Of a DNA stretch of 64,000 nucleotides, positions 19,839 to 37,593 are shown piece after piece (position 1 is the stretch's first letter; the number at the start of each line of letters is the position of its first letter). Position numbers and translations under genes: made by a program. Origin of the DNA: Candidatus Bathyarchaeota archaeon (GTDB lineage Archaea; Thermoproteota; Bathyarchaeia; 40CM-2-53-6; RBG-13-38-9); assembly GCA_963807605.1 (NCBI GenBank), contig CAWECG010000003.1, positions 384,001 through 448,000 of the forward strand, read 5' to 3'. Under the pieces are notes generated by a model. That model was not told where the DNA came from, did not search any database, and was given only the letters and a program-made list of their open reading frames with translations.

Positions 19839-21542
19839 GTGGCCGACGATCACTTGGATGATTATGCAAAGTGGGAGAGATGGGCGTACGAGCAGAGGTA
19901 CGGACAGGGAAGCTGGGACGCAGACCACAGCGTGAGTGAGGACACAAGGACAGAAGGACACGCAGGTTTCCGAGATTACAAAGATCCTTTCAAGACATAT
20001 TGGAGCGACGAGCATTCTATCGGCATTTTGGAGAGGGATAGGAAGTTCATCGGAGTTGCTTGCATAGTTGCCAAGGAAGTTGTAGACAAGGAGAGTTTTG
20101 TCAGAAGGTTCGGATTGAGCTTTGAGAAGGACATTCAATGGAAAGCTGCCGCTAGTCTTCTAGATCATCTCTCAAGATCTCCTTTGTTCAAAGCAGTTCT
20201 CGTCACAGTCAACAAGGTTCCTTTCAAGCTTGAGCCAGATGTACCTGAGGAATTGCAGGGAAGAACGAACTGGTCAAAGAGAAATTACGAGTTCCATAAA
20301 GACAAAGCTGACACGTTTAAGCTCCAACTTGAACAGCAGAGGAATTCTCCTGTGTTTGGCGGGCCTTTTCCAAAATATTTGCCAAAGCAGATGAAGGAAG
20401 AGGAAGATTATGCCAAGAAGTTCCTCGAACTGTCCAAAAGCCTGGAGATGCAGGCTCAAGAACATCTCAAACAGTATTTCTTGATAAAGGAAAACCTGTT
20501 TGTTGCTGCTCTGTTTCTCTACGTCTACACAAACCCATCCGATGACTTTAATCAAACTGTTAACGACATCCTTGCCAGAAGAAGAGCAGCCGAGATTGAA
20601 GCGAACCTGACTTACTTCGTCAAATGCTCGCCAGTCAAAGACCCTATAATCGCTCTCAGACCGGAGTTTTTTCTTCTTTGGGACGAGGTCCAACCATACT
20701 ACTCCTTAGCCCTAGCAGACGATTGCGCAGGTTTCGGCTCAAACAAAGAGATAGCGGCGATCATGAGGAAGATGTTTACTTCCGCATTAGAACTTCCAAA
20801 GGAAGAGTCAATCGAAGAACAAATTCACATACCTTCAGAGGAAGTCAGCCTCGAAGGACCAAGAAAGGCATTGCTTGGGTACATTGTCGAATCTGTTGTC
20901 AAGGGCAAGATTACAAAAAGGAGAGTGTACTTTCCTCTTGACGTTCTGACCGGACATGGAATAATCTTCGGTAAGACACGTGTGGGTAAGAGCTTTTTTT
21001 CCTTGATATTGATTCAGGAAGCTTTGGCAAATGGGATAAGAGTTGTTGTGTTCGACCCACACGGGACTCTGGCTAACAGACTGAAGGAGAATGAATTACT
21101 AAAAGTAGTGTACACTAAAGGAAAGGCAGACATCACAAGCGAACTGGAAGAGATCTACCAAGATGCTTCTGCTTGGCCTGAAACAAACGAACTGAAATTA
21201 CTAGTTGTACTTGATGAGACCAGGCTGTTAAGAGCGAAGAATCTTGCCCAATGTTTGAATGAACTAGGTAAACGGGGTTTAGGCTTCATTCTTGTGACGC
21301 AGTACTCGACGAGCATTCCACCTGAGGCAAGAAATCTTGGAACTTACTTTATCATGGCAGCCATGAGCGAGACTGAGATTCAACGCTTTAAGGAAGTGAC
21401 TCTACATCCAAGTTCAAAGTTGATAACAAGATTACCTAGGGCGACGAGTTTTATCTTTAGTCCCTACTGGTATCCTGAGCCGTTCTTTGTTAGACATCGA
21501 AAGATGACCGAGAGCAAGGTCTCAGGAGATGCTGTCAAATAG
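19839..21542 (+). CDS. DUF87/HerA-FtsK-VirB4-like P-loop ATPase
   Basis: HGIIFGKTRVGKS, VVVFDPHG, LVVLDE, ILVTQ. Confidence 0.8.
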   Translation: MADDHLDDYAKWERWAYEQRYGQGSWDADHSVSEDTRTEGHAGFRDYKDPFKTYWSDEHSIGILERDRKFIGVACIVAKEVVDKESFVRRFGLSFEKDIQWKAAASLLDHLSRSPLFKAVLVTVNKVPFKLEPDVPEELQGRTNWSKRNYEFHKDKADTFKLQLEQQRNSPVFGGPFPKYLPKQMKEEEDYAKKFLELSKSLEMQAQEHLKQYFLIKENLFVAALFLYVYTNPSDDFNQTVNDILARRRAAEIEANLTYFVKCSPVKDPIIALRPEFFLLWDEVQPYYSLALADDCAGFGSNKEIAAIMRKMFTSALELPKEESIEEQIHIPSEEVSLEGPRKALLGYIVESVVKGKITKRRVYFPLDVLTGHGIIFGKTRVGKSFFSLILIQEALANGIRVVVFDPHGTLANRLKENELLKVVYTKGKADITSELEEIYQDASAWPETNELKLLVVLDETRLLRAKNLAQCLNELGKRGLGFILVTQYSTSIPPEARNLGTYFIMAAMSETEIQRFKEVTLHPSSKLITRLPRATSFIFSPYWYPEPFFVRHRKMTESKVSGDAVK

Positions 21543-23021
21543 CGATCCATTCATTTCATGGCAACAGGAAGGACATCTGAATACGTCCATCGTATCCCCT
21601 CGCAGTGCGCCGCAAGCTGGACAGCGTCCTAAGGTCAATTTGCGGAAAGGAAACAGCAGTAACACACCTAATGTGATCATCAAGATGAACAGCAGATCTG
21701 GAGTGATAACTGCCGAGATGAAGAATACGATCAGTACCAGTTCCACCAGCAGAAACTTAGTATTCTTTGAGAAATATGGGTACGCGAACAATATCATTGT
21801 CATCACAAATGCAAGGAGAAGAGCAAGAGCAATCAAGGAGATCATGAGTACGGCGTTCAAAGCTGAAGCCAAGACAAGATCAGCGATAGCTCTTACTGCG
21901 TAGGTTTGGTAGCCAAGAAAGCCAATAGCGACACCGGCCAAGAATTTCAGGAGCTGAAGGAACAGTCTCAATCCCTTCATGGCCACTAGGAAAAAGAAAG
22001 GTAGAAACATTGTAGAAAAGAGAGTGAAGCTTGTTGTCAGTAAAGCGACTTCAGGAAGCAAAGTCACATTCCAAGCAAACTTGAAAGAGATCAGGGAGAT
22101 ACTGACACCAGATCTGAAAAACGCAAGGAGCAAACCCAGTGTCAATCCATACTCAATTCTGGGAATAAAGAGCCAACTATTGTCCCGCAGCATCTTGATT
22201 CTCTCTATGGCAGTTGGTCCTCCTTTGATCTTCTCCTGCCAACTACCTTTAGTAACGAACAGTTGAAGGTTCAAAATGAGTTTCATTGTTGTTTTTTGGA
22301 GTGAAGCAACTCTTGCATCTGCATAAGCTTCTCTAACCCTCAAGAGTTGACCATTCACTAGATAGATTGCCAGCGTCGGCACTAGATATAGCTCCCTCAA
22401 CCAGAACGAATGAAAATCGAAGAAGAATTCTGACACAAACGGTCGTGTCGCAAGAAAAAAGGTCGCGTGAACGATCAGAAGAATCAGGTAAGACTTTATC
22501 AACTTCTCCGCAATCGTATGTTTCACAAGATCCCTGTTTTTCAAATGAGAAAGCTCGTGAAGCATTGTTGATTCGACAAACTCGCGCTTTACGTAGAACA
22601 TCTTGCAAAACCCTTCACTAAGTGTCAAGTAGGTTTCTCTATGGTTTCCAAAGATCACTGCCCGGTAGTCTGTAGCATTTGACCACAAGATGGTTGGCGA
22701 GGATACATCTATCTCTCCGGAAAGCTGGTCTACGAAATTACGCAGCTCCGGACATCTTGAGTCGATTCTTTCGAGGTGCTGTTTTCTTATCTTCCTTTGA
22801 GGATCGTAAAGATAGAACAATAACGTAAGCAATGTCAAACCCATAACTGTTAAAAGCGAAAATGACGCGAAAATGATTTTTCCTACGATGCTGGTAGCCA
22901 GCGGGATTAGTCCGACATAAAGTGCTCCTATACTTATCGCTGGAGATACAGCAGTGATTACCAAAATGATGAACAAGATAGTATGATATGATGGAAAGGC
23001 GAATGGGTTTAGCCTATTCAT
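21522..23021 (-). CDS. M48 (HtpX-like) membrane metalloprotease with C-terminal zinc ribbon
   Basis: LHELSH, REAYAD, many TMs, CPAC...CPSC. Confidence 0.82.
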   Translation of the reverse strand: MNRLNPFAFPSYHTILFIILVITAVSPAISIGALYVGLIPLATSIVGKIIFASFSLLTVMGLTLLTLLFYLYDPQRKIRKQHLERIDSRCPELRNFVDQLSGEIDVSSPTILWSNATDYRAVIFGNHRETYLTLSEGFCKMFYVKREFVESTMLHELSHLKNRDLVKHTIAEKLIKSYLILLIVHATFFLATRPFVSEFFFDFHSFWLRELYLVPTLAIYLVNGQLLRVREAYADARVASLQKTTMKLILNLQLFVTKGSWQEKIKGGPTAIERIKMLRDNSWLFIPRIEYGLTLGLLLAFFRSGVSISLISFKFAWNVTLLPEVALLTTSFTLFSTMFLPFFFLVAMKGLRLFLQLLKFLAGVAIGFLGYQTYAVRAIADLVLASALNAVLMISLIALALLLAFVMTMILFAYPYFSKNTKFLLVELVLIVFFISAVITPDLLFILMITLGVLLLFPFRKLTLGRCPACGALRGDTMDVFRCPSCCHEMNGSLFDSIS

Positions 23022-23150
23022 CTCTCAGATCTCTCCATAACAAGCTCTTAATATCCTCGACAGCCAAGAGTATTTCCAGATACCTCTCCCTCAGCAATTG
23101 CACTGTCACTTGCTTGTTCTGGCTTTTTGTTTTCTGGCGTTCGTTAAAGC

Positions 23151-24749
23151 TCAGATTGCAGCTGTTGGACGCTCCCAGCCATCTAGAGTTATGAAGAATT
23201 CTTGGTTGATGGGATGCGAGCAATGCCGACATCGAAAAAGACTGAAAGGGACGATCGACTTACGACAGAACGGACACTTCGCATACTTGTTGGACATTAA
23301 TAAGAGACTCAAGCCAAAGAGAAGCACTGTAATTCCAATCGCGTAAAGAGCCGGCTCGCCCAAGTTTAGGATATGGATAAGCCATCCCATAGGTAGAAGA
23401 ACCAGAACAAAGTTGGGAATAAGTAACTTCAACTGCGGCCCAAGGTTAAGAGAAAAGAAAGAGAGACTGAACTGAAGTAGAAGCTTCTGAATAAGCAAGA
23501 ACATGTACGTGGCTATGAAGAGATAGAGCAACAGATCAATCCCCGGACGGAGCGGCAAGATCGTCAAAGTAAGCACTGAAGTCAACACTATGCTGATCTT
23601 CAAGGGCGTCACAAATGTATGGAAAAGGTCTTGTCGAGTGTTCCGAATGTTGCTGAGAATTGAGACCCAGAATGGCAAGCACATCAATAGGAAAATGAAA
23701 TAATTGGTTGCAAGAAAGAAAACACCTACAAACATAGAGAATGGCAGATATCCGATCACATTCCACACGATGGCCAAAGAGCCGAGAGAGAGAAAGCCAG
23801 ACAACCACGAAAATCCGCTAACCGCCGCGCAGATGAGTCCTCTTTCAATAGTGTGCCTGAAAATGTCTTGCTTTATGATTTTGATCCTTCGTGCTGAAGT
23901 TAGAAGAAAGGGAGAAAATAGTCTCGCAGGGAAGCTTGACTGTGGGAATCCGCTGAAAAAGCTTAGCACGTTGAGCATATTTCTGTCGGTTTTCTCAATA
24001 CATATAGTTCTGGCATCCGCGTAGATCTCTCTCCATCTTGCTATGACGTTGTTCAGATAGAAGACCGCAACAAGGGGAATCAGATAGACCAGCATAACCG
24101 CCGGCAACCAGTCAAGAATAAGATTATGGCTAGAAATTAGGGCAAAGAAAATACTGACAAAAGTGACCACAGCAAACGATCTCCATAGGCTTTCAGCGAT
24201 TTCATGTTGCACGAGATCTCTATTCTTGATATGTGATAGCTCGTGAATCAGAATCGTCTCTACCAAGGATTGAAAAGTGTGCCACTTTTCGCAGAGCCCG
24301 GTTGAAATCAAAAGCCTACCATGCTTTTCGGAGCCAAAGGCCAATGCATTTATTTCTGCACTATCGACGTAGAATGTCTCAGGAGTCTGCAAGTTCATTC
24401 GTTCGCACAGTTGTCGAAGAAGCGTAAGGATCTCTGGACGCTGGACTTCAAGCTTGTATTGTCCATATTTTTTCATCCTGCTTTTGATTGTGTGAGTGTA
24501 GAAAACATATGTCAGGACGGGAAACAGAAAGAGGTTGAACGGCGCAAGAACGATCAGAGGATACCTAGCAGGGTCCAACGTAAAAAGGGGATACAGGAAA
24601 TATGTAATGACTGAAACAGCTAGACTAGAAGCTGGGCCAACAAGAGACATCAACATATAGACGAAGTAAAGCGTTAGTTCTGATGGGAAGACGAATGGGT
24701 TAAGTAGCTTCCTTTCCTTCGCAGGATCCTCGACGCTGCACGAGTTCAA
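23151..24749 (-). CDS. M48 membrane metalloprotease paralog with C-terminal zinc ribbon
   Basis: INALAFG, IHELSHIKNRD, REIYAD, CPFC...CRHC; shares the LNPFxFPS start with its neighbour. Confidence 0.82.
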   Translation of the reverse strand: MNSCSVEDPAKERKLLNPFVFPSELTLYFVYMLMSLVGPASSLAVSVITYFLYPLFTLDPARYPLIVLAPFNLFLFPVLTYVFYTHTIKSRMKKYGQYKLEVQRPEILTLLRQLCERMNLQTPETFYVDSAEINALAFGSEKHGRLLISTGLCEKWHTFQSLVETILIHELSHIKNRDLVQHEIAESLWRSFAVVTFVSIFFALISSHNLILDWLPAVMLVYLIPLVAVFYLNNVIARWREIYADARTICIEKTDRNMLNVLSFFSGFPQSSFPARLFSPFLLTSARRIKIIKQDIFRHTIERGLICAAVSGFSWLSGFLSLGSLAIVWNVIGYLPFSMFVGVFFLATNYFIFLLMCLPFWVSILSNIRNTRQDLFHTFVTPLKISIVLTSVLTLTILPLRPGIDLLLYLFIATYMFLLIQKLLLQFSLSFFSLNLGPQLKLLIPNFVLVLLPMGWLIHILNLGEPALYAIGITVLLFGLSLLLMSNKYAKCPFCRKSIVPFSLFRCRHCSHPINQEFFITLDGWERPTAAI

Positions 24750-28303: not shown

Positions 28304-28984
28304 ATGGTATATCGAAAAGTTGTGCCGCAGGGCCTTTTGAACCAGAACAGAGTTGTCGTCGAGGGATCTCCGGATGAATGTCTTCCAAGCGGACAGGTGT
28401 ACGTTTCACCAGCGTCTGGAAGAGTATACAACCGAGACAAAGGCGATAAGCTAGCGAACCTACCGCAGGACGCAACTGAGATCCCAAAGACAACCTGGTG
28501 GTTGAAGGCCCCGCAACTGTGGAGAGGGAGAGGAGCAGACAAAGCTCCTCAAACCCCTTTTCCAGTTCCAAAGTCTGTCGCGGAAGCAAGTCAGGAGACA
28601 CATTGGTACTTCACTCCAATCGGAATAGAGCGACTCAAAACCGAATACCAAGAGATGAAACGATACTTTCCAGACTTCGAGCTGTACCAAGACGACCTTG
28701 GCATGCTGTTGTGGATGGGCAAACTCGAAGGCTTGGGCGAAATAAGACTTCACTATCCTGCCGATTATCCAATCAGTCCTTTCAACGTAGCCGTGATGGA
28801 CACAACTGAATCAAAGGATGTCAAATTGAACGAAAAGATATCTGAGTACAGAACACTCGGCATCACACCGACCGGCGCATTGATCGTGGTTTTGAGATTT
28901 TTCCTAAAGGAGAGAGGAGCAAATGTGGTATCAGACAATCCAAGGACAGAGGAGACTCCAAGTAGAGATAGAACAGATGCGTAG
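28304..28984 (+). CDS. candidate ubiquitin-like N-domain fused to a Cys-less E2/UBC-like (UEV-like) domain
   Basis: GAGGTGA before ATG 28304; ERLKTEYQEMKRYFPDF...WMGKL...YPADYPISP is a UBC-fold signature; no Cys in this domain. Confidence 0.65.
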   Translation: MVYRKVVPQGLLNQNRVVVEGSPDECLPSGQVYVSPASGRVYNRDKGDKLANLPQDATEIPKTTWWLKAPQLWRGRGADKAPQTPFPVPKSVAEASQETHWYFTPIGIERLKTEYQEMKRYFPDFELYQDDLGMLLWMGKLEGLGEIRLHYPADYPISPFNVAVMDTTESKDVKLNEKISEYRTLGITPTGALIVVLRFFLKERGANVVSDNPRTEETPSRDRTDA

Positions 28985-29273
28985 GAATACTTCATTCTCG
29001 CTCAATCGAGACGATGAAAACGGAAAGCTTGCTTGGAAAGGCCATCTTGGCGGCCACGAAATTCTGCTTGAGTATTCTGACAGTCATCCGGGCGAAAAGA
29101 TGCGAGTATACGTATCGAACCCGCGACTGCCATCCGTTAACCTTCACATCCATTCTGACGGCACTATCTGTTACATGAAGGATCAAGAGTGGAGCCCTGA
29201 CTGGACTGCGTATACTGTCTATCTGACAATAATCAGGTTTCTGGATGATTTCCACAGAGGCAGAATGATATGA
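28923..29273 (+). CDS. E2 ubiquitin-conjugating enzyme-like protein
   Basis: RRLQVEIEQM, WKGHL, HIHSDGTICY (catalytic Cys), EWSPDWT. Confidence 0.82.
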   Translation: MWYQTIQGQRRLQVEIEQMRRNTSFSLNRDDENGKLAWKGHLGGHEILLEYSDSHPGEKMRVYVSNPRLPSVNLHIHSDGTICYMKDQEWSPDWTAYTVYLTIIRFLDDFHRGRMI

Positions 29274-30571
29274 TTCATCCGAACAAAGTAATCATCCACA
29301 GAGACGTTCTTCGAGAGATCCGCGAGGACGTGAAGCATTGGAGTGAAAGACAATTGGAGTCCGGCGGCTATCTTCTGGGCAATATCCACACACCGACTCT
29401 AGTTCTTGAGATCACTGATTTCATAGATGGAGGACCAAATGCAATACACACCGGGATTAGTTTCTCACCTGACAATGAATATGCAACCGTGGCTAAAGCA
29501 GAGCTTCAAGCAGCTAAGCCAGATATTCGTTTGGTCGGCGAGTATCACCTTCATCCTTGGAGCGGTTATCCTCGTCCGAGTGGAGGGGACAAACACCAGC
29601 TTCAGCAGATCAAGAACAGCCTAAGACCATGGTATGTCATAATGTTAGCAACACCCAATGGATTCAGGCTTTGGGACTTGGATGAAGAAACAGCGTTCAC
29701 CGAATTGCCTCACCAAGTCATCCGGGTCTCAACACGCATCGATCAAACAGAATTGCTTAACAGGATCTCAGAAATCACACAGCATGAGCTTCTTGCAAAG
29801 AAACGGGTCACAATAATCGGTCTGGGTAGCGGCGGCTCAGTAATATCGAAATATCTTGGAAACACCGGAATTGGCAACTTCATTCTCATCGACGATGAAA
29901 GACTTGAACTTACAAACGTAATTCGTCATGAAGGGACACTAGAAGAGATAGGGAGGCCCAAGACTGAGATCTGCAAGAGAATTATTGAACTGCACAACCC
30001 GTTTGCAGTCGTCAAGACATTTGAGATAGATGTCCTAGAGGAGAAAAACAAATTCGAGGAAATCGTGACAAGCTCAGACCTGGTTATAGCATCCAGCGGT
30101 AATGCAAAAGTCAATAATCTGATCAACAAAATTTCCATTGAAAAGAATATTCCGGTAGTGTACGGCGGCATCTTTGAAAAGGCATCCGGAGGCTATGTCC
30201 TTCCAGTAATTCCTAACAGAACCGCATGCTTCAACTGCCTGTTCAATTTGACAGCGCAATCGTACCATGTAGATAAATCAGCTGCACAAGCATACAATGT
30301 TCCCGAGGCAGAACTACACAACCAACAAGGACTATGGATAGACATATCGATACCCGCTCTCTTTTTGGCAAAGTCTGCGTTGATGATACTCCAGGGAGAA
30401 GTGCTTGAGCACAACCTGCTGTTATACAAGAATCCATTCGATCTCAAGAAGTTCAAAATAGACAGAAGAGGCGACTGCTCAGTCTGCAATTTTGACGGAT
30501 GGCTAGAGAAGCAAGAAGTTCAAAACAAGAAACGATCAATTTTCTCGAGGTTCAAGAGAGCCAGACAGTAG
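29270..30571 (+). CDS. JAB/MPN+ isopeptidase fused to ThiF/MoeB-type E1 activating enzyme
   Basis: ESGGYLLG and EYHLHP...PSGGD (JAMM); IIGLGSGGS, IDDERLELTNVIRH, IGRPK, CFNC...CSVC. Confidence 0.88.
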   Translation: MIHPNKVIIHRDVLREIREDVKHWSERQLESGGYLLGNIHTPTLVLEITDFIDGGPNAIHTGISFSPDNEYATVAKAELQAAKPDIRLVGEYHLHPWSGYPRPSGGDKHQLQQIKNSLRPWYVIMLATPNGFRLWDLDEETAFTELPHQVIRVSTRIDQTELLNRISEITQHELLAKKRVTIIGLGSGGSVISKYLGNTGIGNFILIDDERLELTNVIRHEGTLEEIGRPKTEICKRIIELHNPFAVVKTFEIDVLEEKNKFEEIVTSSDLVIASSGNAKVNNLINKISIEKNIPVVYGGIFEKASGGYVLPVIPNRTACFNCLFNLTAQSYHVDKSAAQAYNVPEAELHNQQGLWIDISIPALFLAKSALMILQGEVLEHNLLLYKNPFDLKKFKIDRRGDCSVCNFDGWLEKQEVQNKKRSIFSRFKRARQ

Positions 30572-30581
30572 CTCTCCACAC

Positions 30582-31262
30582 ATGATTTCTTTGGTGACTG
30601 GAATGAGCAGTACACAGAATATTTGGCAGGTTCTAGAGCAAACATTGGCGCGAGTTAACAATCGACTAGGTCAAGTTGAGAACAGGCTCGTCCAACTTGA
30701 AAACCAGCAAGAAAGACCACGAACGATGTTCAGTGAGAGAAGGGTTGTCGAGGCTGCCGGGCTTCTTGGTGGGAGAGAACTTCTAACCTCTGCAGATAAT
30801 AGCATCACAAGAGTAACACACCAACCAGTCTGCGATATATGCGGTCGCGTATTACGAATTGAGGACGAAGAATTCAGCATCTGTCGTTCATGTGGAAAGA
30901 AGCTGTGCCGAGAATGCGGAATAAAATACTCGAGTGCACTCTATTGCATTGCCTGTCTTAGGCGACAGGTTCCTCTCGAGAAAGCCTCGTACAAAATCCT
31001 TGTAGCAGTGGCAAACTGTGTAACTCGGGCAAGCACAATAGCTGAGCTGGTTAAGTTACCGAGGAAGAACGTGGAAGACCGACTGACCGAACTATTCAAC
31101 ACTAATCTGATCATGAAACAAGGTCTTTCAATATTCTCTCGGATCTCTGTTACCGCCGAAGGACTGGAAGCTATCGGGGTCTTTCGTGGAGCGTACGGGT
31201 CAGACGAGGATGCCCTGCAGTTTGACAGTGAGTTACGCAGATACTTGATGACCCGAGGGTGA
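30582..31262 (+). CDS. coiled coil + 8-Cys binuclear zinc finger + winged helix protein
   Basis: CDIC-x13-CRSC-x4-CREC-x9-CIAC; TIAELVKLPRKNVEDRLTEL...VTAEG. Confidence 0.75.
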   Translation: MISLVTGMSSTQNIWQVLEQTLARVNNRLGQVENRLVQLENQQERPRTMFSERRVVEAAGLLGGRELLTSADNSITRVTHQPVCDICGRVLRIEDEEFSICRSCGKKLCRECGIKYSSALYCIACLRRQVPLEKASYKILVAVANCVTRASTIAELVKLPRKNVEDRLTELFNTNLIMKQGLSIFSRISVTAEGLEAIGVFRGAYGSDEDALQFDSELRRYLMTRG

Positions 31263-31266
31263 GGTT

Positions 31267-31467
31267 GTGGGCTTCAGAGATTCAATGGACAGAGCAATAA
31301 CCGCGTTGATCGTTCTGGGCTTGGCCCTCTTCAGCATTGGGCTGATTTCATGGATCGCCAATCTACTGCAGAGATACAACCTATCATGGGAACTTCAACT
31401 AGCCGCGATTGGTGTGGTCTTGATTCTTCTCGCGTCGATTGCTGCGAAGCTATTCTCAAGAGATTAA
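31267..31467 (+). CDS. small 2-TM protein
   Basis: Two hydrophobic helices; sits within the operon. Confidence 0.6.
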   Translation: MGFRDSMDRAITALIVLGLALFSIGLISWIANLLQRYNLSWELQLAAIGVVLILLASIAAKLFSRD

Positions 31468-33682
31468 GTCTGAACAAAATGCCGGTCTGGGTGATAGACT
31501 CTTGGTAGAACACACGTTTGCAGCAAACAGCATCAGAGAGCGCAAAGAAAAAGTTGCCCAGCTTCTTGACAAACAACTGGTTCGATCATCAATACTCTCC
31601 CAACTTGCGGATGACACGACTGATTCAATAGAGGGCGACCTAAACGCATATCTCACTATCCATTATCTTCCAGAACTCGCCGGAGAAGTTCCAGTATTCA
31701 ACTATCCAGATCCGACCACAGCGGACGGCGATTTTCTAATCGGAGCAATCAACGATCACAACAAAACGTTTCGATTCGCCACACGAAAGCAGGAGATGAT
31801 TCGCCATCTCCTTTTTGCAGGCTCAAGCGGAAGTGGTAAGACCAATCTGGCTCTGCTGCTAGTCAGTCAGTTTCTCAGAAAAGGCAAGCCCTTTCTCGTG
31901 GTTGACTGGAAGCGCAACTATCGTGACCTGATTACTCTCCCTGAAGCAACCGGCAAGGAAATACTAGTCTTCACGGTCGGCCGTGAAGTCTGTCCATTTC
32001 ACTTCAATCCGTTGATACCGCCGAGAGGAACCAGCCCACACGTCTGGCTTTCAAAACTGATCGAAGTTATCTCACACGCTTACTACTTGGGTGAGGGCGT
32101 GGAGTACCTACTGTGCAAGGCAATCGATTCAGTTTACAGGCAATTCGGTGTATATGATAGAAGCAACAACTGGCCAAGCTTCAGGAACGTGCTCTCATAC
32201 CTAGAGAGCTACGACTGCAAGGGAAGAGAGTCACAATGGCTTGCTTCTGCATTGCGTGCGGTCGCAGCCCTTTGTTTCGGAGAGATGGACAGAATAGTCA
32301 ACCATGGCAACTACCCAATAGATAGAGTTCTGACTAAAAATGTGGTCCTTGAGGTTGATGCTCTACCTGACTCGGCTAAGATATTCCTGACAGAGTCACT
32401 GTTACTTTGGATTCATCATTTCAGAATGGCTGAAGGAAAGAGGGAGACCCTAAAGCACATTTGCATTCTTGAAGAAGCTCACCACATCCTCTCAAGAAAA
32501 CTGCAGATAATATCTGGCACTGAAACCATAACAGACATCCTCCTCAGAGAAGTCAGAGAGTTCGGCCAGTCTGTGATAGTGATCGACCAGGACCCAAGCT
32601 TACTCTCAATTCCTGCGCTAGGCAACACTTACACCACGGTCTGTTTTGGCCTGAAAGAGAGAAGTGACATAAATGTCATGGCCGCAGCGCTAAACCTCGA
32701 TTACAGGGACAAAGATATCTTAACCAAGCTTGAGGTCGGTCATGCTATAGTTAAGCTTCAAGGAAGATGGCCCGAACCTTTCCTTATCGAAATCCCAAGA
32801 GTCGACATCCACAAAGGATCTGTAACTGACGAACAGCTCAAAGACCAAATGGCATGGTTTTACAAGGAATTAGGACAAAATCGAACCGAAACACAGCCAC
32901 TAGAAGAATCTAGAGAAATTATGCCTCGGAATAAAGAGCAAACAAGTAAAGATCAAACAAGAGAAAAAGGCCAACTGGCACACCAAGAAACAGAAGAGAA
33001 GGTAAGAACTCAAGAACCAAAAAGACAAACAGAAAATATTGCAGGGAAACAAGGCACAGCCAAAACAGAGATAGAATCAGGGGAGTTAAGTGAAGCAGAA
33101 AGAGAGCTACTGATTGACATTCTAAGAAATCCACTAAGCAAGGTAACAGATCGGTACGCAAGATTAGGACTGAACGAATATCAGGGAAACAAAGCCCAAA
33201 CAAGACTGGCTGAAAAAGATCTAATAAGAACCGAGATGCTGCCCGCATATCAAAAGAGGGGCTATTGGGGCAAGGCCTTTGAACTCACGGAGAAAGGGCA
33301 ACAGACTCTCGCTACACTCGGTCATATGCAACCACAGCAGACCAAAAGAAAAGGAGGACTCCAGCACAAACACATCACAAAACTGCTCGCAGAAAAACTC
33401 CGGACTCAAGGCCATCAAGTCCAAGAAGAATATCAGCTAGGCTCTGGCGAAGCAACTGATTTACTGGTGGACGGACAAACAGCAATCGAAATCGAGAGAA
33501 GCACCAGGAACTCGGCAGACAATGTCAAGAAGAACCTCGCACATGGCTTCACAGTTCTGGTAGTCGCTGAGACGGCTTCCCTAAAGTCAATTCTCAGAAA
33601 ACTTCTAGCTGAGCAAGGCCTCGGCTCAGTCGTGGTGATGGAAGTAAAGGAGCTACTGAGCAGTGGGCTCCCCGCAGTTTAA
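31439..33682 (+). CDS. DUF87/HerA-VirB4-like ATPase with C-terminal wHTH and PD-(D/E)XK-like nuclease
   Basis: HLLFAGSSGSGKT, ICILEEAHH, REVREFG, VIDQ; GGLQH...QEE...TDLLV...AIEIE. Confidence 0.85.
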   Translation: MLRSYSQEIKSEQNAGLGDRLLVEHTFAANSIRERKEKVAQLLDKQLVRSSILSQLADDTTDSIEGDLNAYLTIHYLPELAGEVPVFNYPDPTTADGDFLIGAINDHNKTFRFATRKQEMIRHLLFAGSSGSGKTNLALLLVSQFLRKGKPFLVVDWKRNYRDLITLPEATGKEILVFTVGREVCPFHFNPLIPPRGTSPHVWLSKLIEVISHAYYLGEGVEYLLCKAIDSVYRQFGVYDRSNNWPSFRNVLSYLESYDCKGRESQWLASALRAVAALCFGEMDRIVNHGNYPIDRVLTKNVVLEVDALPDSAKIFLTESLLLWIHHFRMAEGKRETLKHICILEEAHHILSRKLQIISGTETITDILLREVREFGQSVIVIDQDPSLLSIPALGNTYTTVCFGLKERSDINVMAAALNLDYRDKDILTKLEVGHAIVKLQGRWPEPFLIEIPRVDIHKGSVTDEQLKDQMAWFYKELGQNRTETQPLEESREIMPRNKEQTSKDQTREKGQLAHQETEEKVRTQEPKRQTENIAGKQGTAKTEIESGELSEAERELLIDILRNPLSKVTDRYARLGLNEYQGNKAQTRLAEKDLIRTEMLPAYQKRGYWGKAFELTEKGQQTLATLGHMQPQQTKRKGGLQHKHITKLLAEKLRTQGHQVQEEYQLGSGEATDLLVDGQTAIEIERSTRNSADNVKKNLAHGFTVLVVAETASLKSILRKLLAEQGLGSVVVMEVKELLSSGLPAV

Positions 33683-33788: not shown

Positions 33789-34145
33789 TTGAGAACACTC
33801 ATCGGCACTTGTGAGATATGTGGAGATGAGGTCTGGGAGGAGGACGGTCTGTTGTTGATGAATTCCTGCTACAGATGTGACAGATGTGGCAGATGGACCT
33901 GTTGGGGATGCGGCGGATACAGCACGGGAGATGGCTATGGAACAGAGGATGAGTCGAAGTACAGAAGCATATGCAAGGAGTGCTACTACGAGCTACAAGC
34001 AGAATATGCAGCCAAATGGGAAGCAGAGTACGGAGCTGAGGAAAGGGCTCGTGGAATGGAGAATCCTTACGATTTCAGCGAGGAAGAAAAAGAGTGGCGG
34101 GAACGTTTACGCTCGTATCAACCGCGCAGAGACAGCCATGGGTGA
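33789..34145 (+). CDS. multi-Cys zinc-finger protein
   Basis: CEIC, CDRC-x4-CWGC, CKEC; GGAGG upstream. Confidence 0.6.
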   Translation: MRTLIGTCEICGDEVWEEDGLLLMNSCYRCDRCGRWTCWGCGGYSTGDGYGTEDESKYRSICKECYYELQAEYAAKWEAEYGAEERARGMENPYDFSEEEKEWRERLRSYQPRRDSHG

Positions 34146-34259: not shown

Positions 34260-34841
34260 ATGTTGCCTGAGAACGAGCTCAAAGTCCTCGCGGCTTTCTT
34301 TCCTGAAGATGGAGATAAGACCATACAGGAATTGCGAGAAGCGGCTGGCTACTCATACGAGAGGGTCTACTCCTCACTAAACTCACTTGTGAATAAGCGT
34401 ATTGTGTCAAGGAGAAAGGTGGGCCGCACATTAGTCTATACTATAGACACATCTAACGATCTGGCCCTTCTAGCTTTCACTTATCATACCATCAGCAGGA
34501 GAACATCACTTATGGGTAGGTATTCAACAGTTGGGAAGGCGTTAGCAGAGTTTCTGGCAAAGGCTAAGACGGATATAGTGGTTCTTTTCGGCAGTTACGC
34601 CAAGGATGAAGCTAAAGAGGGTAGCGACGTCGATATTCTCTGTGTTAACGGTAGAGCTGATGTGGAAAGGATTGCATTGTCCCTGAGACACAAATTCAAT
34701 CTAAGGATCACTCCGGTCTTGATGGCCAAGGATGATTTTCTGAACATGAAGAAGGAGAATCCGGAATTTTGGCGTGACCTCGTTCAATTTGGAGTGGTCT
34801 TGAAGGGGCATGAACAGTACTACAGCCTAGTCTACAGGTGA
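34260..34841 (+). CDS. wHTH + minimal nucleotidyltransferase (MNT antitoxin)
   Basis: N-terminal wHTH; VLFGSYAK...SDVDIL. Confidence 0.85.
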   Translation: MLPENELKVLAAFFPEDGDKTIQELREAAGYSYERVYSSLNSLVNKRIVSRRKVGRTLVYTIDTSNDLALLAFTYHTISRRTSLMGRYSTVGKALAEFLAKAKTDIVVLFGSYAKDEAKEGSDVDILCVNGRADVERIALSLRHKFNLRITPVLMAKDDFLNMKKENPEFWRDLVQFGVVLKGHEQYYSLVYR

Positions 34842-34859
34842 TTCTGAGGCGAAGTATGT

Positions 34860-35396
34860 TTGGAAAGGAACATCAACTGGTTCATACACCAAGGATTACT
34901 TTTGAAGACTCCTTTCATAAGGAGACTTGCTCCAAGGTTGCAAGACAAGGCGCGAAGTAACCTCATCACTATGAATATTCTCTTCGATCTCTACAGCAAT
35001 GAAGGGGCCAGAAGGGTACTGAACATTCCAGATGAGTATGATCCTGGAGAGTGGGTTGTGATCTCAGGGTACTATGCAATGTACATGATGAGCTTAGCTG
35101 CCCTTTCAAAGATAGGCTTCAGAAGCAAGAATCATGCGGCCACGGCTGTCGCTCTGGAAACCTTCTTTGTTAAGAAGAAGCTGCTTGAACCAGAGATTCT
35201 GAAAATGCTTGAGAATGCAAGGCTTGAGAGAGAACAGATAGAACAGTTGAAACTGGCAAAACAGAGGCGGGAGATAGCTCAATACAGCGTGACGAAGGAG
35301 ACCACTCGAAAGATTGCGGAGAACATACGGGGAGATGCTTTCAAATTTGTTGAGAGATTGGAGGCACTAATCGAGAGCTTGCCGTTGACTGCCTGA
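34860..35396 (+). CDS. HEPN domain protein (MNT-HEPN partner)
   Basis: GYYAMY..LAAL, SKNH, RREIAQY. Confidence 0.8.
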   Translation: MERNINWFIHQGLLLKTPFIRRLAPRLQDKARSNLITMNILFDLYSNEGARRVLNIPDEYDPGEWVVISGYYAMYMMSLAALSKIGFRSKNHAATAVALETFFVKKKLLEPEILKMLENARLEREQIEQLKLAKQRREIAQYSVTKETTRKIAENIRGDAFKFVERLEALIESLPLTA

Positions 35397-36077: not shown

Positions 36078-37352
36078 TCATGGGCCTTTCATTATTACCC
36101 TTCCGTCAGGTAGTGTCATCATAGGTTCCCATCCTTCGTCTATGAACTTCTCGATTTCATCAACTCTTACAACTTTACGGGAGGAGTCTTTCTTTGAAGT
36201 GTCCTCGTTGCGGTTCTGACCCTGAGAGAGAACTTGCTGTCCTTTCTCGGTTACTAGCTGAGATACGAGATCTTCGAGCTGCCTTAGCCGCTCCTCCAAC
36301 TGTTGACGGGAAAGCTGAGACTCACGTCGGACCTCCTCAGCCTCAGAGATTGTTAGCAGAGGCACAGCCTTAAGATAGTCTTCCAGAAGGTCCTTCTCTA
36401 TCGGCCTATAGTAACTGTCGGATATGCCTGTTGAGTGACCCATCAAAGTCTCAACATTGATAGGCTTCATGACCTGCTCTGCCCTAGTTTTGAAGAACTT
36501 TCTTATTGAGTGAATGGAGAACTCATGTCTTCTCTTCTTCTCCTTTCGCAGTCCGAATTTCCAGAGCATATCCTCGAAGAGTCGCCTTACACCCCTGACC
36601 TGCAGCCTTCTTGGTTTGTTGATGTCGCCCTCGTGAAGGTTCTTTACTGTTTGCCATCTATCCCTAATCAACGGTGAATCTCCAGCTATTTTCTCTCCCT
36701 GAGAAGCACGCAACTGCACGTACTGCTCTAGCTTCCGATAGGCTTCAGGCGTTATGAATGTCTGGTACTCTTCTGATTCACCGGCATAGACACGAAGTTT
36801 TGCGGCAACAACCTTCCCATCCGTCTTTATGGGCTCCACATGCCCCCAGTTGAGATACTCCCACGCGCCGATCCTGATTCCACTGCTCGCCATGGTGAGA
36901 ATGATTGCTTGGAACCTCAGATCCGAGTTTGTTACAAGCAGTCTTAACTCATCAATGGTCGGTGCCCTGTCAAGCGCATATCTTCTTGCACTCGGCAAAA
37001 GTCGCGAAATCTTCTTCCAGTTTATCCCCGAGACATCATTCATCTCCAGGAGCAGCTTAACAGGCTTCTTCATATTGCCGACAGTGCTAGGCTCTATCTC
37101 CTTTCTGGATGCTCTCTCCTTTTCATTCAAGAGAAAACTAAGAATCTGATTCTGAGCCCAGCGGGAATTCTTCTTAGCCTTCCCAACAAAACTGTCAACA
37201 TCCATGCCAACATATTCTAGGAAAGTGGCAAGTCTCCGCTGGTAGATTTCGCGCGTAGTAGGGCTCTTGATAGCCTCAAGAAAAAGCTTCGAGGCTTTGC
37301 CCTCAAGTAAGGAAAGATCCTTGAGCTTCCTACCAGCTGGCAACTCAATCAA
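36078..37352 (-). CDS. tyrosine recombinase/integrase (next to tRNA 3' end)
   Basis: SSGIRIG (R), HSIRKFF, LMGH, SDSYY (Y). Confidence 0.9.
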   Translation of the reverse strand: MIELPAGRKLKDLSLLEGKASKLFLEAIKSPTTREIYQRRLATFLEYVGMDVDSFVGKAKKNSRWAQNQILSFLLNEKERASRKEIEPSTVGNMKKPVKLLLEMNDVSGINWKKISRLLPSARRYALDRAPTIDELRLLVTNSDLRFQAIILTMASSGIRIGAWEYLNWGHVEPIKTDGKVVAAKLRVYAGESEEYQTFITPEAYRKLEQYVQLRASQGEKIAGDSPLIRDRWQTVKNLHEGDINKPRRLQVRGVRRLFEDMLWKFGLRKEKKRRHEFSIHSIRKFFKTRAEQVMKPINVETLMGHSTGISDSYYRPIEKDLLEDYLKAVPLLTISEAEEVRRESQLSRQQLEERLRQLEDLVSQLVTEKGQQVLSQGQNRNEDTSKKDSSRKVVRVDEIEKFIDEGWEPMMTLPDGRVIMKGP

Positions 37353-37409
37353 AAATATGATGCCTACGGCTCGATATAAATTTTGAGCCCACTTCTAGAC
37401 GCAATAATG

Positions 37410-37529
37410 TGGCGGGCCCGCCGGGAATTGAACCCGGGACCCCGACCCAGGACACACTTTGTGTCTCCTTCCGGGTGGCCTCCAAAGTCGTTAAAAGCCC
37501 GGTACTCTACCTGACTAAGCTACGGGCCC
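37410..37529 (-). tRNA. tRNA-Lys(UUU) with two introns (37/38: 37477-37491; 43/44: 37443-37470), CCA encoded
   Basis: GGGCCCG acceptor, CCGGG-CTTTTAA-CCCGG anticodon arm, GTTCAATTC T-loop. Removing the 15- and 28-nt BHB-bounded inserts gives a 77-nt cloverleaf. Confidence 0.92.
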
Positions 37530-37593
37530 GTCCTTATTGTCCCTAACTAATCCTTATATCTTTGTCTCTTCCATGTGTTTCTTTGGGTCAGGG

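What the first reader, a model, noticed from the sequence alone, without database searches (positions are those of the whole stretch)
28304..33682. Mobile-element-borne ubiquitin-like conjugation operon coupled to an ATPase-nuclease
Seen: six tightly packed co-directional genes. They encode a Ubl?-E2 (no Cys), an E2 (HIHSDGTICY), a JAB-E1 fusion, a coiled-coil/8-Cys finger/wHTH protein, a 2TM protein and a DUF87 ATPase-wHTH-PD-(D/E)XK nuclease. Known: E1+E2+JAB sets define prokaryotic Ubl conjugation pathways (Bil/Bub, CBASS Cap2/Cap3, the Caldiarchaeum/Asgard ubiquitin operon). I see no CD-NTase here, and the architecture matches none of those as I know them. Inference: an undescribed archaeal protein-conjugation system acting in anti-viral defence or in control of the element's DNA translocase.
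Basis: partly seen in the sequence, partly recalled or inferred. Interest (0 to 1): 0.9.

Follow-up and report, generated by a model that had tools for sequence, protein, structure and literature searches.

The report
Mobile-element ubiquitin-like tagging operon
An integrated mobile element in an archaeal genome carries a conserved six-gene operon for a ubiquitin-like protein-tagging pathway (a likely new small tag, two E2-type proteins, a protease-E1 fusion) joined to a DNA-binding protein and a membrane-tethered DNA motor-nuclease; this combination is not described in the papers and libraries I could search.

Summary
Six tightly packed + strand genes (28304-33682) are real, and 35 metagenomic loci keep the same order (E1 identity 93% down to 30%); 13 of them hold all six genes. 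O2 is a minimal E2 with invariant His75 and Cys83. O1's C-terminal half has a Cys-less UEV/RWD fold. O3 is a JAMM protease fused to an E1 that has no crossover-loop Cys but a near-invariant Tyr342. O4 combines a coiled coil, an 8-Cys region and a MarR-like wHTH. O5 has 2 TM helices. O6 is a HerA-clade ATPase followed by a wHTH and a PD-(D/E)xK-like motif.

New here: O1's first 66 residues form a discrete module. In related operons it is a stand-alone 52-99 aa protein that ends at the conserved TTW[Y/W/F] motif and sits just upstream of E2 and JAB-E1. Elsewhere it is fused to the active E2. This makes it the best candidate for the missing modifier, though it does not look like a beta-grasp.

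The closest known system is Type I Bub (6E). It shares the two hallmark fusions and the Cys-less E1, but membership fails: there is a Cys-E2, no DUF6527 and no recognisable Ubl. I could not decide between defence/exclusion (favoured) and control of element DNA transfer. This is a new variant of a known kind. The scan has not found it on other DNA.

The parts
28304..28501 (+). O1 residues 1-66: mini-domain (motifs VYVSP..G.V and PKTTWW); candidate modifier
   Evidence: Conserved block in 20 O1 homologues. AF2 pLDDT is 75-87, with short strands only. The same module occurs as stand-alone 52-99 aa proteins ending at TTW[Y/W/F] plus 0-7 residues. Four of these were checked in DNA next to E2 and/or JAB-E1.
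28502..28603 (+). O1 linker (variable, Pro/Arg-rich); proposed JAB cleavage zone
   Evidence: pLDDT is below 60 for residues about 66-100. Length and sequence vary among homologues. No Gly is conserved here.
28604..28984 (+). O1 C-terminal Cys-less UEV/RWD-like UBC fold plus acidic tail
   Evidence: VIA-align gives Vps23 and Tsg101 UEV at Z 9.0, RWD and UBC folds, and Citrobacter BubB at Z 7.5. The Foldseek list is almost all UBC or RWD. O1 is a paralogue of O2 (cross-hits 1e-4 to 1e-12). A helix replaces the HxH..G..C loop.
28923..29273 (+). O2: minimal catalytic E2 (His75, Cys83)
   Evidence: UQ_con E 0.005 and PADLOC E2 1e-4. H75 and C83 are invariant in 21 homologues. Prok-E2_B and UQ_con each hit 7 of 21 members.
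29270..29689 (+). O3 JAB/JAMM metalloprotease domain
   Evidence: Prok-JAB 2.9e-6. E30, H93, H95, S104 and D107 are invariant in 22 sequences. Best solved relatives are 9ild (2e-6) and the Caldiarchaeum Rpn11-like protein (5e-3).
29747..30571 (+). O3 E1 adenylation domain: four Zn-Cys, no crossover-loop Cys, Tyr342 (30293-30295)
   Evidence: ThiF 4.5e-31. UBA5 1.7e-22, MoeB 3e-21 and MccB 3.5e-19. C320, C323, C403 and C406 are invariant and Y342 is at least 90% conserved. The Tyr is also present in L089 and L090.
30582..31262 (+). O4: coiled coil + 8-Cys region + MarR-like wHTH DNA-binding protein
   Evidence: AF2 pLDDT 86.5. SlyA and MepR 6e-4. MarR family Z up to 10.6 over residues 130-209. 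Cys conservation is shown. It lies in the cassette in 16 of 18 long loci.
31267..31467 (+). O5: 66-aa two-TM protein
   Evidence: Two hydrophobic helices are conserved in 21 homologues. Only weak Pfam hits: DUF2157 and Cap15_TM.
31439..33682 (+). O6: HerA-clade P-loop ATPase (Walker A 31829-31840), then wHTH (about 33080-33313) and PD-(D/E)xK-like domain (about 33356-33538)
   Evidence: DUF87 2.5e-7 and mad8 1e-15. HerA 4d2i 4.8e-15 and antiphage HerA structures. NCBIfam CedD 3e-24 and HerA_antiphage 1e-8, both far below cut-off. H643, E664, D674 and E684 are invariant. The parts are separate genes in L090 (ATPase, 2TM, wHTH-nuclease).
33789..34145 (+). ZF118: Cys-rich (FYVE-like) small protein; follows the cassette in the closest relatives only
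   Evidence: FYVE 2e-4. Homologues sit directly after O6 in L008, L009 and L021.
21522..24749 (-). Two paralogous M48-type metallopeptidases, divergent from the cassette; a linked neighbour, not shown to be part of the system
   Evidence: Peptidase_M48 3e-6 and 6.6e-11. M48 genes lie upstream on the opposite strand in L008, L018, L021, L031, L032 and L033. This M48 type was not found in 300 other genomes of the class.
36078..37529 (-). Tyrosine integrase and adjacent intron-bearing tRNA (37413-37529): the element's integration module
   Evidence: Phage_integrase, weak. Rfam tRNA 51 bits. An integrase lies within a few kb of the cassette in 7 of 18 long loci, the window among them, and also in L077 and L091.

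Best explanation
A self-contained, horizontally mobile cassette encodes a non-canonical ubiquitin-like conjugation pathway wired to a DNA-acting machine.

Shown:
- The genes, their domains, the catalytic residues and the conserved order.
- The mini-domain as a separable module.

Inferred mechanism:
1. The JAB domain of O3 cuts O1 just after the TTWW motif (W66). This frees a 66-residue beta-rich mini-protein. In other operons that protein is made stand-alone, with 0-7 extra C-terminal residues to trim.
2. The E1 domain of O3 adenylates the mini-protein's C-terminus. Because the E1 has no catalytic Cys, it hands the mini-protein on either directly or through Tyr342, as BubCD does through a Tyr oxyester.
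3. Cys83 of the E2 (O2) takes it as a thioester. The Cys-less UEV-like domain of O1 acts as the E2's partner (Ubc13/Mms2 logic). That domain is dispensable, since L089, L090 and L091 lack it.
4. The tag is placed on a target and removed again by JAB.
5. O4 (wHTH + Zn) binds DNA as regulator or sensor. O5 and O6 form a membrane-tethered HerA-type motor with a wHTH-nuclease. This is either the effector or the regulated component.

Most likely biological role: a conflict system (defence or exclusion) carried by integrated elements. It would work like Cap2/Cap3 control of CBASS, or like Bil/Bub tagging.
For: Real and conserved:
- 35 loci keep the order and 13 hold all six genes, at E1 identity 93% down to 30%.
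- Catalytic residues are invariant: the JAMM motif and E1 Zn-Cys, E2 His/Cys.

E1:
- No Cys in the crossover loop. Tyr342 is at least 90% conserved and lies 3 residues before the position aligned to UBA5 Cys250.
- The Tyr is also kept in L089 and L090, which are 31-32% identical.

Mini-domain as the tag:
- 11 stand-alone proteins end at TTW[Y/W/F] plus 0-7 residues.
- In L089, L090, L091 and L092 the gene lies inside the contig, directly before the E2. In L090 its stop overlaps the E2 start (ATGA).
- In L045 and L043 it is fused to the Cys-E2. In L045 the E2's WY start follows TRWY after two residues.
- The O1 linker after W66 is disordered in the model.
- Precedent: the Ubl-E2 fusion BubAB is cut by the JAB of BubCD (PMC11601596).

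Conflict role:
- The cassette is sporadic: 1 of 301 genomes of the class and none in the GTDB representatives scan.
- Neighbours are R-M systems, AbiEii, MNT-HEPN, PLD and SLFN_AlbA.
- The O6 ATPase is closest to HerA, including antiphage HerA complexes.
- Related E2/E1/JAB sets pair with other partners (class III cyclases), so the conjugation core is modular.
Against: - No biochemical step is shown.
- The mini-domain does not look like a beta-grasp: short strands and no long helix.
- It has no conserved C-terminal Gly. An aromatic C-terminus would be unusual for an E1.
- It has no sequence match in the PDB.
- O3 is no closer to BubCD than to UBA5, MoeB or MccB by sequence. BubCD does not appear among the PDB hits.
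- The nuclease is a motif-level call only.
- Cassette plus integrase make up most of a roughly 9-kb element in L004/L009, and integrases are often adjacent. This also fits a core function of the element rather than cargo.
- No defence-family model reaches threshold.
Confidence: 0.45

Rival explanations
1. Same enzymes, but no dedicated tag. As in type II CBASS (Cap2/Cap3 acting on the CD-NTase C-terminus), the E1/E2 pair would conjugate the C-terminus of an operon protein (O6, O4) or a host SAMP/Urm1-type protein. The mini-domain would be a non-covalent adaptor or targeting module of the E2-fold proteins.
For: - No beta-grasp and no conserved C-terminal Gly in the mini-domain.
- The module is always next to, or fused to, an E2-fold protein, as an accessory domain would be.
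- The top UEV structural alignments span model residues 6 or 7 to about 205, so parts of the N-terminus may pack on the UEV fold.
- PADLOC and NCBIfam place the E1 nearest Cap2-type models (4e-26 and 5e-28, below cut-off).
- The genome has two other, housekeeping E1-like genes.
Against: - No operon protein has a conserved C-terminus. O4 ends in Gly in only some loci, and the tails of O5 and O6 vary.
- A conserved motif at the extreme C-terminus followed by short variable tails is typical of processed modifiers.
- The stand-alone gene occupies the position that Ubl genes hold in Bil/Bub operons.
Confidence: 0.3
2. The cassette is a core module of the integrated element rather than a defence system. 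O5 and O6 would form a membrane-anchored dsDNA pump (like Streptomyces TraB, T4SS coupling proteins or CedB/CedD). Its wHTH would recognise the element and its nuclease would process the DNA for transfer or maintenance. The conjugation enzymes and O4 would switch this machine on and off.
For: - An integrase lies within a few kb of the cassette in 7 of 18 long loci, the window among them, and also in L077 and L091.
- In L004/L009 the cassette, a few small ORFs and an integrase-like gene (3e-16) fill about 9 kb between chromosomal-looking genes.
- O6 gives weak hits to P-loop_TraG, TrwB, TraD and CedD.
- In L089 the slot after the ATPase holds a Pfam Replic_Relax protein.
- A second DUF87 ATPase and a transglutaminase-like gene recur in the window, L077 (second DUF87 ATPase only) and L079.
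- The element-type M48 genes were found, like the cassette, only in the window's genome among 301 of the class.
Against: - By profile the ATPase is HerA-clade. VirD4/TraG-type hits are much weaker.
- hhalign finds no homology between O6 and the L089 Replic_Relax protein.
- The flanks differ widely between loci while the cassette stays constant.
- The paper I read on thaumarchaeal integrated elements does not mention ThiF or JAB.
- Every characterised non-metabolic prokaryotic E1/E2/JAB set acts in immunity (PMC11601596).
Confidence: 0.3
3. A peptide-modifying (MccB/PaaA-like) pathway. The E1 would adenylate the C-terminus of the mini-protein to make a modified peptide product, not a protein conjugate.
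For: MccB (3.5e-19, aligned over most of the domain) and PaaA (2.6e-15) are among the best solved relatives of the E1. The C-terminus is not Gly.
Against: An invariant Cys-E2 and an intact JAB are present in every variant. There are no export or immunity genes. The partner genes act on DNA.
Confidence: 0.05

Closest known systems
Type I Bub (6E.1/DUF6527) operons: BubAB, BubCD, BubE (Ye et al. 2024, PMC11601596; Iyer et al. 2006 row 6e, PMC1779556)
   Same: Both have a JAB-E1 fusion with JAB at the N-terminus. Both E1s lack a crossover-loop Cys and have a conserved Tyr. In both, the first gene fuses an N-terminal module to a Cys-less E2-fold domain, which in Bub the JAB cleaves. O1 superposes on BubB (Z 7.5).
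   Different: Here a separate E2 with invariant His and Cys is always present. The Cys-less domain lacks the whole active-site loop, so there is no Ser/His/Asp triad. There is no DUF6527 protease. The N-terminal module is 45-66 residues, does not look like a beta-grasp and ends in TTW[Y/W/F] rather than Gly. O3 shows no special sequence closeness to BubCD. The partner genes differ: ZnF-wHTH, 2TM and HerA-nuclease.
Type II CBASS Cap2 (E2-E1) and Cap3 (JAB)
   Same: E1, E2 and JAB regulate a companion immune enzyme without a classical Ubl. The best PADLOC and NCBIfam scores of the O3 E1 are to Cap2-type models. The system is MGE-linked and sporadic.
   Different: There is no CD-NTase. E2 and E1 are separate genes, and JAB is fused to E1 instead. 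Extra parts are the UEV-like protein and the mini-domain. All scores are far below family cut-offs.
Bil (BilABCD) systems
   Same: A small protein gene, an E2, a JAB and an E1 in one operon, with a Cys-E2.
   Different: BilA is a beta-grasp ending in Gly. BilD is an IAD-AAD-CYS multidomain E1 with a catalytic Cys. There O3 has one adenylation domain and no CYS domain.
Caldiarchaeum/Asgard ubiquitin operon (Ub, E1, E2, small RING E3, Rpn11)
   Same: An archaeal operon with E1, a Cys-E2, a JAMM protease and a Cys-rich protein. The O3 JAB hits the Caldiarchaeum Rpn11-like structure weakly (5e-3).
   Different: No ubiquitin gene. JAB is fused to E1. The E1 lacks the catalytic Cys. O4 is a wHTH protein whose Cys region I could not test for a RING fold. 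The cassette is element-borne and sporadic, not a chromosomal housekeeping set.
HerA-effector defence complexes (Sir2-HerA, DUF4297-HerA) and archaeal HerA/CedB/CedD ATPases
   Same: The O6 ATPase profile is closest to Sulfolobus HerA and to antiphage HerA/DUF87 structures. It is coupled to a nuclease-like domain.
   Different: The nuclease and wHTH are fused to the ATPase (or follow it as a separate gene). A separate 2TM partner is present. HerA_antiphage and CedD scores are far below cut-off (34 and 85 bits against 800 and 600).
Ubc13-Mms2/Uev1a (E2-UEV pairs)
   Same: An active E2 sits next to a Cys-less paralogue with a UEV-like fold.
   Different: The UEV-like domain is absent in several otherwise complete variants (L089, L090, L091). 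Heterodimer formation was not tested.

Membership tests
Type I Bub (6E.1) | JAB peptidase fused to the N-terminus of the E1 | tested here: met
   Prok-JAB over residues 11-136 and ThiF over 165-404 lie in one ORF. The JAMM residues are invariant.
Type I Bub (6E.1) | E1 without a crossover-loop Cys and with a conserved catalytic Tyr | tested here: inconclusive
   No Cys lies between the first CxxC and the QQGLW motif. Y342 is at least 90% conserved and is kept in L089 and L090. I could not test its equivalence to BubCD Y370, because BubCD is not among the sequence hits.
Type I Bub (6E.1) | Ubl (1-3 beta-grasp domains ending in Gly) fused to the E2 | tested here: inconclusive
   The fusion of an N-terminal module to an E2-fold domain is present. 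The module is 45-66 residues, the model shows only short strands, and no Gly is conserved at its end. The module was not folded alone.
Type I Bub (6E.1) | E2 that works through Ser (with His and Asp) and has no Cys | tested here: not met
   O2 has invariant His75 and Cys83. O1 lacks the active-site loop altogether.
Type I Bub (6E.1) | DUF6527 (BubE) serine protease gene | tested here: not met
   No PF20137 hit in the six proteins. The whole genome gives one sub-threshold fragment elsewhere (E 0.046).
Type II CBASS | CD-NTase gene plus Cap2 (E2-E1 fusion) plus Cap3 | tested here: not met
   No CD-NTase or SMODS hit in the cassette or its flanks. PADLOC E1-E2 models match only the E1 part of O3. 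The E2 is a separate gene.
Bil | Beta-grasp BilA and an IAD-AAD-CYS E1 with a catalytic Cys | tested here: not met
   O3 has a single adenylation domain of about 270 residues with no inserted Cys domain. No beta-grasp protein was detected.
E2/UBC superfamily (O2 and O1 C-terminal half) | UBC fold; for an active E2, the HxN/HxH...Cys loop | tested here: met
   The O1 model matches UEV, RWD and UBC at Z 7-9, and these fill nearly the whole hit list. O2 is paralogous to O1, carries the invariant H..G..C motif, and gives sub-threshold UQ_con and Prok-E2_B hits. O2 itself was not folded.
HerA clade of FtsK-HerA ATPases (O6) | P-loop ATPase with the HerA-type core | tested here: met
   DUF87 is above the Pfam cut-off (31.5 against 23.2 bits). 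The profile hits HerA 4d2i at 4.8e-15 over positions 77-414. Equivalog models (CedD, HerA_antiphage) are far below cut-off, so O6 is not a member of those subfamilies.
PD-(D/E)xK nucleases (O6 C-terminus) | Restriction-endonuclease fold with the E...D...E-x-K/E catalytic motif | tested here: inconclusive
   E664, D674 and E684 are invariant and E686 is near-invariant, in the expected spacing. No Pfam or PDB hit covers this part. It was not folded. The Atlas lead to Replic_Relax scores only 0.85, and hhalign against the L089 Replic_Relax protein is negative.
RING/treble-clef E3 (O4 Cys region) | Cross-brace binuclear Zn site that binds an E2 | tested here: inconclusive
   The spacing C-x2-C-x13-C-x2-C-x4-C-x2-C-x9-C-x2-C is conserved. 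Pfam hits (DZR_2, IBR, zf-UDP) are weak, E 0.03-0.5. The wHTH fills the fold-search lists, so this part went untested.

The most novel reading that the evidence does not exclude
The cassette defines a new class of protein modifier. This would be a roughly 65-residue beta-rich protein that does not look like a beta-grasp and whose conserved C-terminus is aromatic (TTW[Y/W/F]) rather than Gly. A JAB protease would expose it, either from a fusion or from short tails. A hybrid cascade would then activate it: a Cys-less, Tyr-bearing E1 handing over to a classical Cys-E2. That cascade would sit midway between Bub oxyester chemistry and canonical thioester chemistry. The tag would control a membrane-tethered HerA motor-nuclease on mobile elements of archaea, and probably of bacteria as well.
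Probability: 0.35. Interest if true: 0.9.

Novelty: new variant of a known kind. Interest (0 to 1): 0.72.

Why it matters
E1/E2/JAB operons in prokaryotes are the known roots of ubiquitin signalling, and so far they act in antiviral immunity (CBASS, Bil, probably Bub). This cassette matters for four reasons:
1. It adds an archaeal, element-borne family with a complete enzyme set but no beta-grasp gene.
2. It offers a concrete candidate for a new kind of tag, with an exact predicted cleavage point (after W66 of O1) that can be tested in a few in vitro reactions.
3. It pairs a Tyr-type, Cys-less E1 with a Cys-E2. That combination bears on how thioester cascades and the recently found oxyester cascades relate.
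4. It links protein tagging to a HerA-type DNA motor-nuclease, a coupling not described in the papers I could search.

If the role is defence, it is a new archaeal immune system. If the role is transfer control, it would be the first ubiquitin-like switch on a DNA translocase of a mobile element.

Tried and rejected
1. O4 as the E1 substrate. The window's O4 ends in TRG, and some homologues have SG plus short tails. But of 28 homologues many end in RRN, RRR, EKS, LGN or ETP, so I rejected this.
2. The RGRG stretch is confined to the closest relatives.
3. TGGTGG always reads Gly-Gly in the +1 frame. A stop follows in 8 of 19 loci from three lineages, but not in the others. I treat this as a by-product and leave it unexplained.
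4. Complex prediction of O3 with O1 residues 1-80 gave no answer (score 0.00). This is evidence neither way.
5. A PDB sequence search with the mini-domain profile gave only chance-level hits, E 0.17 or worse.
6. The genome-contig scan with the E1 alignment found no relative.
7. DUF6527 was searched in the whole genome; nothing reached the cut-off.
8. hhalign of the O6 profile against the L089 Replic_Relax protein found no homology.
9. An att search for 14-mers of the tRNA region elsewhere in the window found none, so the element's borders are unknown.
10. ARAGORN found no tRNA. Rfam found the intron-bearing one.
11. No small ORF near the operon looks like a Ubl with a Gly-Gly end. ZF118 ends in G but is present in only 4 of 18 loci.
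O2, O6 and the mini-domain alone were not folded.

Full report
**1. The observation.**
The region holds six co-directional ORFs on the + strand:
- O1 28304-28984 (a GTG at 28295 is also possible)
- O2 28923-29273
- O3 29270-30571
- O4 30582-31262
- O5 31267-31467
- O6 31439-33682

Neighbouring genes overlap or are separated by at most 10 nt. A 237-nt spacer precedes O1.

Domain results:
- O3 scores Prok-JAB 2.9e-6 and ThiF 4.5e-31. O2 scores UQ_con 0.005. O6 scores DUF87 2.5e-7. O4 gives weak TrmB-type wHTH and zinc-ribbon hits.
- PADLOC names no system. It gives only part-matches: E2 models to O2 at 1e-4, Cap2-type E1-E2 models to the E1 part of O3 at 4e-26, and mad8 and HerA models to O6.

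**2. It is a conserved unit.**
- A protein search with O3 found about 50 full-length relatives, almost all from metagenomes. One is named as coming from a Nitrososphaerales MAG.
- A metagenome scan gave 66 loci. In 35 of them the E1 gene is flanked by at least two further cassette genes in the same order. In 28 at least four are present, and 13 hold all six, at E1 identity from 93% down to 30%.
- O4 sometimes moves in front of O1 (L013, L018, L020, L035).
- The cassette is sporadic. Of 301 genomes of the same class, only the window's own genome has a full-length match. The GTDB-representative scan found none.

**3. The enzymes.**
- In 22 O3 sequences the JAMM residues (E30, H93, H95, S104, D107), the nucleotide-binding glycines and the four zinc cysteines (C320, C323, C403, C406) are invariant.
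- The crossover loop holds no cysteine. Its best-conserved nucleophile is Tyr342, at least 90% conserved. In the profile alignment to UBA5 (E 1.7e-22), Tyr342 lies three residues before the position of the catalytic Cys250. The same R/D-Y-G motif is present in the 31-32% identical E1s of L089 and L090.
- O2 homologues have invariant His75 and Cys83 in an H-x-H..G..C motif. Seven of 21 hit Prok-E2_B and seven hit UQ_con, all below threshold.
- O1 and O2 are paralogues, with cross-hits of 1e-4 to 1e-12.
- The AF2 model of O1 (pLDDT 78) has a C-terminal domain that matches the Vps23 and Tsg101 UEV domains (Z 9.0), RWD domains, E2s and Citrobacter BubB (Z 7.5). These folds fill nearly the whole hit list.
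- In O1 a helix replaces the active-site loop and the domain has no Cys, so it is an inactive, UEV-like E2 fold.

**4. The other three proteins.**
- O4 (AF2 pLDDT 86.5) has a long N-terminal helix, three strands and eight conserved cysteines. It then has a MarR/PadR-type winged helix: SlyA 6e-4, and Z up to 10.6 over residues 130-209. It is therefore a DNA-binding protein. Whether the Cys region is RING-like could not be tested, because the wHTH filled the hit lists.
- O5 has two conserved hydrophobic helices.
- The ATPase of O6 is HerA-clade. Its profile hits Sulfolobus HerA at 4.8e-15, then antiphage HerA/DUF87 complexes and DptH. VirD4- and VirB4-type hits are much weaker. NCBIfam CedD (3e-24) and HerA_antiphage (1e-8) are far below their cut-offs.
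- After a low-complexity linker, O6 has a wHTH-like stretch and then a block with invariant H643, E664, D674 and E684 and near-invariant E686. This is the spacing of a PD-(D/E)xK site. The nuclease call is motif-level only.

**5. The missing modifier.**
- No ORF in or near the operon looks like a beta-grasp protein with a Gly-Gly end.
- My first idea, that O4's C-terminal Gly is the E1 substrate, failed on 28 homologues.
- The N-terminal 45-66 residues of O1 are a conserved block (V-Y-V-S-P..G.V ... P-K-T-T-W-W), followed by a variable linker that is disordered in the model.
- A profile of this block, searched against 1.84 billion representative proteins, gave 34 hits. Eleven of them are short proteins (52-99 aa) that end at the motif or within seven residues of it:
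  - TTWY-stop, twice
  - TTWF-stop
  - TTWYS-stop
  - STWYGG-stop
  - TTWYGGW-stop
  - TTWWRC-stop
  - TIWYREA-stop
  - TTWYAKK-stop
  - TTWYERPHEH-stop
  - TTYFNEHSD-stop
- Four of these were checked in DNA and lie inside their contigs:
  - L091 is archaeal (histone gene and integrase nearby). Its order is mini-protein (70 aa), Cys-E2 (118 aa), JAB-E1 (3e-148 to O3), O4-like and O6-like, with no UEV.
  - L090 runs mini-protein, an uncalled Cys-E2 whose ATG overlaps the mini-protein's stop, JAB-E1, a Zn-finger protein, HerA ATPase, a 2TM protein and a wHTH-nuclease, all as separate genes.
  - L089 (58% GC) runs mini-protein, Cys-E2, JAB-E1, an 813-aa ATPase and a Pfam Replic_Relax protein.
  - In L092 the mini-protein is followed by the start of an E2, next to AfsR/SARP-type and GerE regulators, which looks bacterial.
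- In L045 and L043 the module is fused to the active E2. In L045 only two residues separate TRWY from the E2's conserved WY start.
- So the module occurs in three forms: stand-alone, fused to a UEV, or fused to the E2. It is the only universal small component of the system.
- A conserved motif at the very C-terminus, followed by short variable tails, is the pattern of modifiers that a protease trims. An N-terminal module fused to an E2-fold protein and released by the JAB of a JAB-E1 fusion is what was shown for BubAB and BubCD (PMC11601596).
- I therefore read O1 residues 1-66 as the probable tag, cut after W66.
- Caveats:
  - The model shows only short strands and no long helix, so it does not look like a beta-grasp.
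  - No C-terminal Gly is conserved.
  - A complex prediction gave no answer.
  - An adaptor role is not excluded.

**6. Comparison with known systems.**
- Iyer et al. 2006 (PMC1779556, row 6e) and Ye et al. 2024 (PMC11601596) describe Type I Bub. It has a Ubl-E2 fusion with a Cys-less E2, a JAB-E1 fusion without a catalytic Cys (Tyr oxyester), and a DUF6527 protease.
- The window shares the two fusions and the Cys-less, Tyr-bearing E1.
- It fails three defining features. Its working E2 has Cys, not Ser. DUF6527 is absent from the cassette and from the genome. The N-terminal module is not a recognisable Ubl.
- O3 is not specially close to BubCD in sequence.
- It also fails CBASS (no CD-NTase, no Cap2 fusion) and Bil (no beta-grasp, no multidomain E1).
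- I found no paper describing this gene set. The survey of thaumarchaeal integrated elements does not mention ThiF or JAB.

**7. Context and role.**
- The window is a mosaic of mobile DNA. It holds integrases at 7896-9149, 36078-37352 and 37537-38937, the last two flanking an intron-bearing tRNA. It also holds a Cdc6-like gene, ParB, a DNA methylase, a second DUF87 ATPase, two M48 peptidases, an MNT-HEPN pair and a ThsB-like TIR gene.
- Other loci place the cassette next to type I, II and III R-M systems, AbiEii, PLD and SLFN_AlbA genes.
- Outside the cassette the flanks share few gene families.
- More distant relatives of the E2/E1/JAB core sit beside class III nucleotide cyclases instead of a HerA-nuclease. 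This points to a modular conjugation core that serves different partner enzymes, as Cap2/Cap3 serve CD-NTases.
- These points favour a conflict (defence or exclusion) system with O5/O6 as effector or regulated part.
- Against this:
  - An integrase lies within a few kb in 7 of 18 long loci, the window among them, and also in L077 and L091.
  - In L004/L009 the cassette plus an integrase-like gene fill most of a roughly 9-kb insert.
  - Element-type M48 peptidases accompany the cassette in at least seven loci and are equally rare elsewhere.
  - A motor with a wHTH and a nuclease, tethered by a 2TM partner, also fits a DNA-transfer or maintenance machine.
- I could not decide between these readings with the tools at hand.

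**8. Verdict.**
- It is a new variant of the prokaryotic E1/E2/JAB conjugation systems, nearest to Type I Bub in anatomy.
- It has a probable new kind of tag and a new partner machine.
- The chemistry (JAB cut after W66, a Tyr-assisted or direct hand-over to E2 Cys83) and the biological role are inferences that a handful of experiments can test.

Noticed in passing
L055:5455-11121, L060:792-6474, L045:2158-6744: More distant relatives of the E1 (29-33% identity) form E2 / E1 / JAB sets next to class III nucleotide cyclases (Guanylate_cyc 1e-21 and 2e-11). L045 also has a methyltransferase, a JAB-UEV fusion and a mini-domain-E2 fusion. The arrangement looks like a cyclase-based counterpart of type II CBASS.
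   Followed up: partly
window 28493-28507 and homologous sites: The conserved Trp-Trp codons (TGGTGG) read Gly-Gly in the +1 frame. A stop follows at once, or after one more Gly, in 8 of 19 loci from three lineages (TGA in the window type, kept through a TTG/CTG synonymous change; TAA in L015/L016; GGG-TAA in L029). It is probably a by-product, but the excess over the roughly 5% expected is unexplained.
   Followed up: partly
window 21522-24749 (-): Two paralogous M48/M56-like metallopeptidases of about 500 aa (30% identical) lie divergent from the cassette. The same kind of gene sits upstream in at least six other loci and was not found in 300 other genomes of the class. Together with the wHTH protein O4 this recalls the protease/repressor switches of mobile elements (BlaR1/BlaI, ImmA/ImmR).
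   Followed up: partly
window 37413-37529 (-): A 117-nt intron-bearing tRNA (Rfam 51 bits) that ARAGORN missed. It is flanked by two divergent tyrosine integrases (36078-37352 on the - strand, 37537-38937 on the + strand). No 14-nt repeat of this region occurs elsewhere in the window.
   Followed up: partly
window 34260-35396: An MNT-type nucleotidyltransferase with an N-terminal TrmB wHTH, followed by a HEPN protein. This toxin-antitoxin-like pair lies between the cassette and the integrase.
   Followed up: no
window 1560-2009: A ThsB-like TIR domain protein (PF08937, 5.7e-25). No ThsA was seen among the ORFs I scanned.
   Followed up: no
window 3815-7620: A calcineurin-like phosphoesterase (494 aa) followed by a 774-aa HATPase_c_3 (GHKL/MORC-like) protein, directly upstream of the integrase at 7896-9149. 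It may be another conflict module.
   Followed up: no
window 17260-21542; L077:1-85; L079:14712-19956: A second DUF87/TraD-like ATPase (19839-21542) and a transglutaminase-like protein (17260-18576) lie in the window. L079 has both gene types near the cassette, and L077 has a DUF87 ATPase at its left end. This may be a shared element backbone.
   Followed up: partly
window 10798-15266: A Cdc6/Orc1-like AAA+ gene (- strand), a ParB-N/HTH protein, a 477-aa unknown protein and an N6/N4 DNA methylase. These are replication/partition-type genes of the same or a neighbouring element.
   Followed up: no
L005:11675-12715, L006:12247-13194 and six more loci: A 300-440-aa protein with a basic start and a very acidic remainder, followed by a protein of about 115 aa, comes after O6 in eight or more loci. 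In the window's closest relatives the Cys-rich ZF118 takes this place.
   Followed up: no
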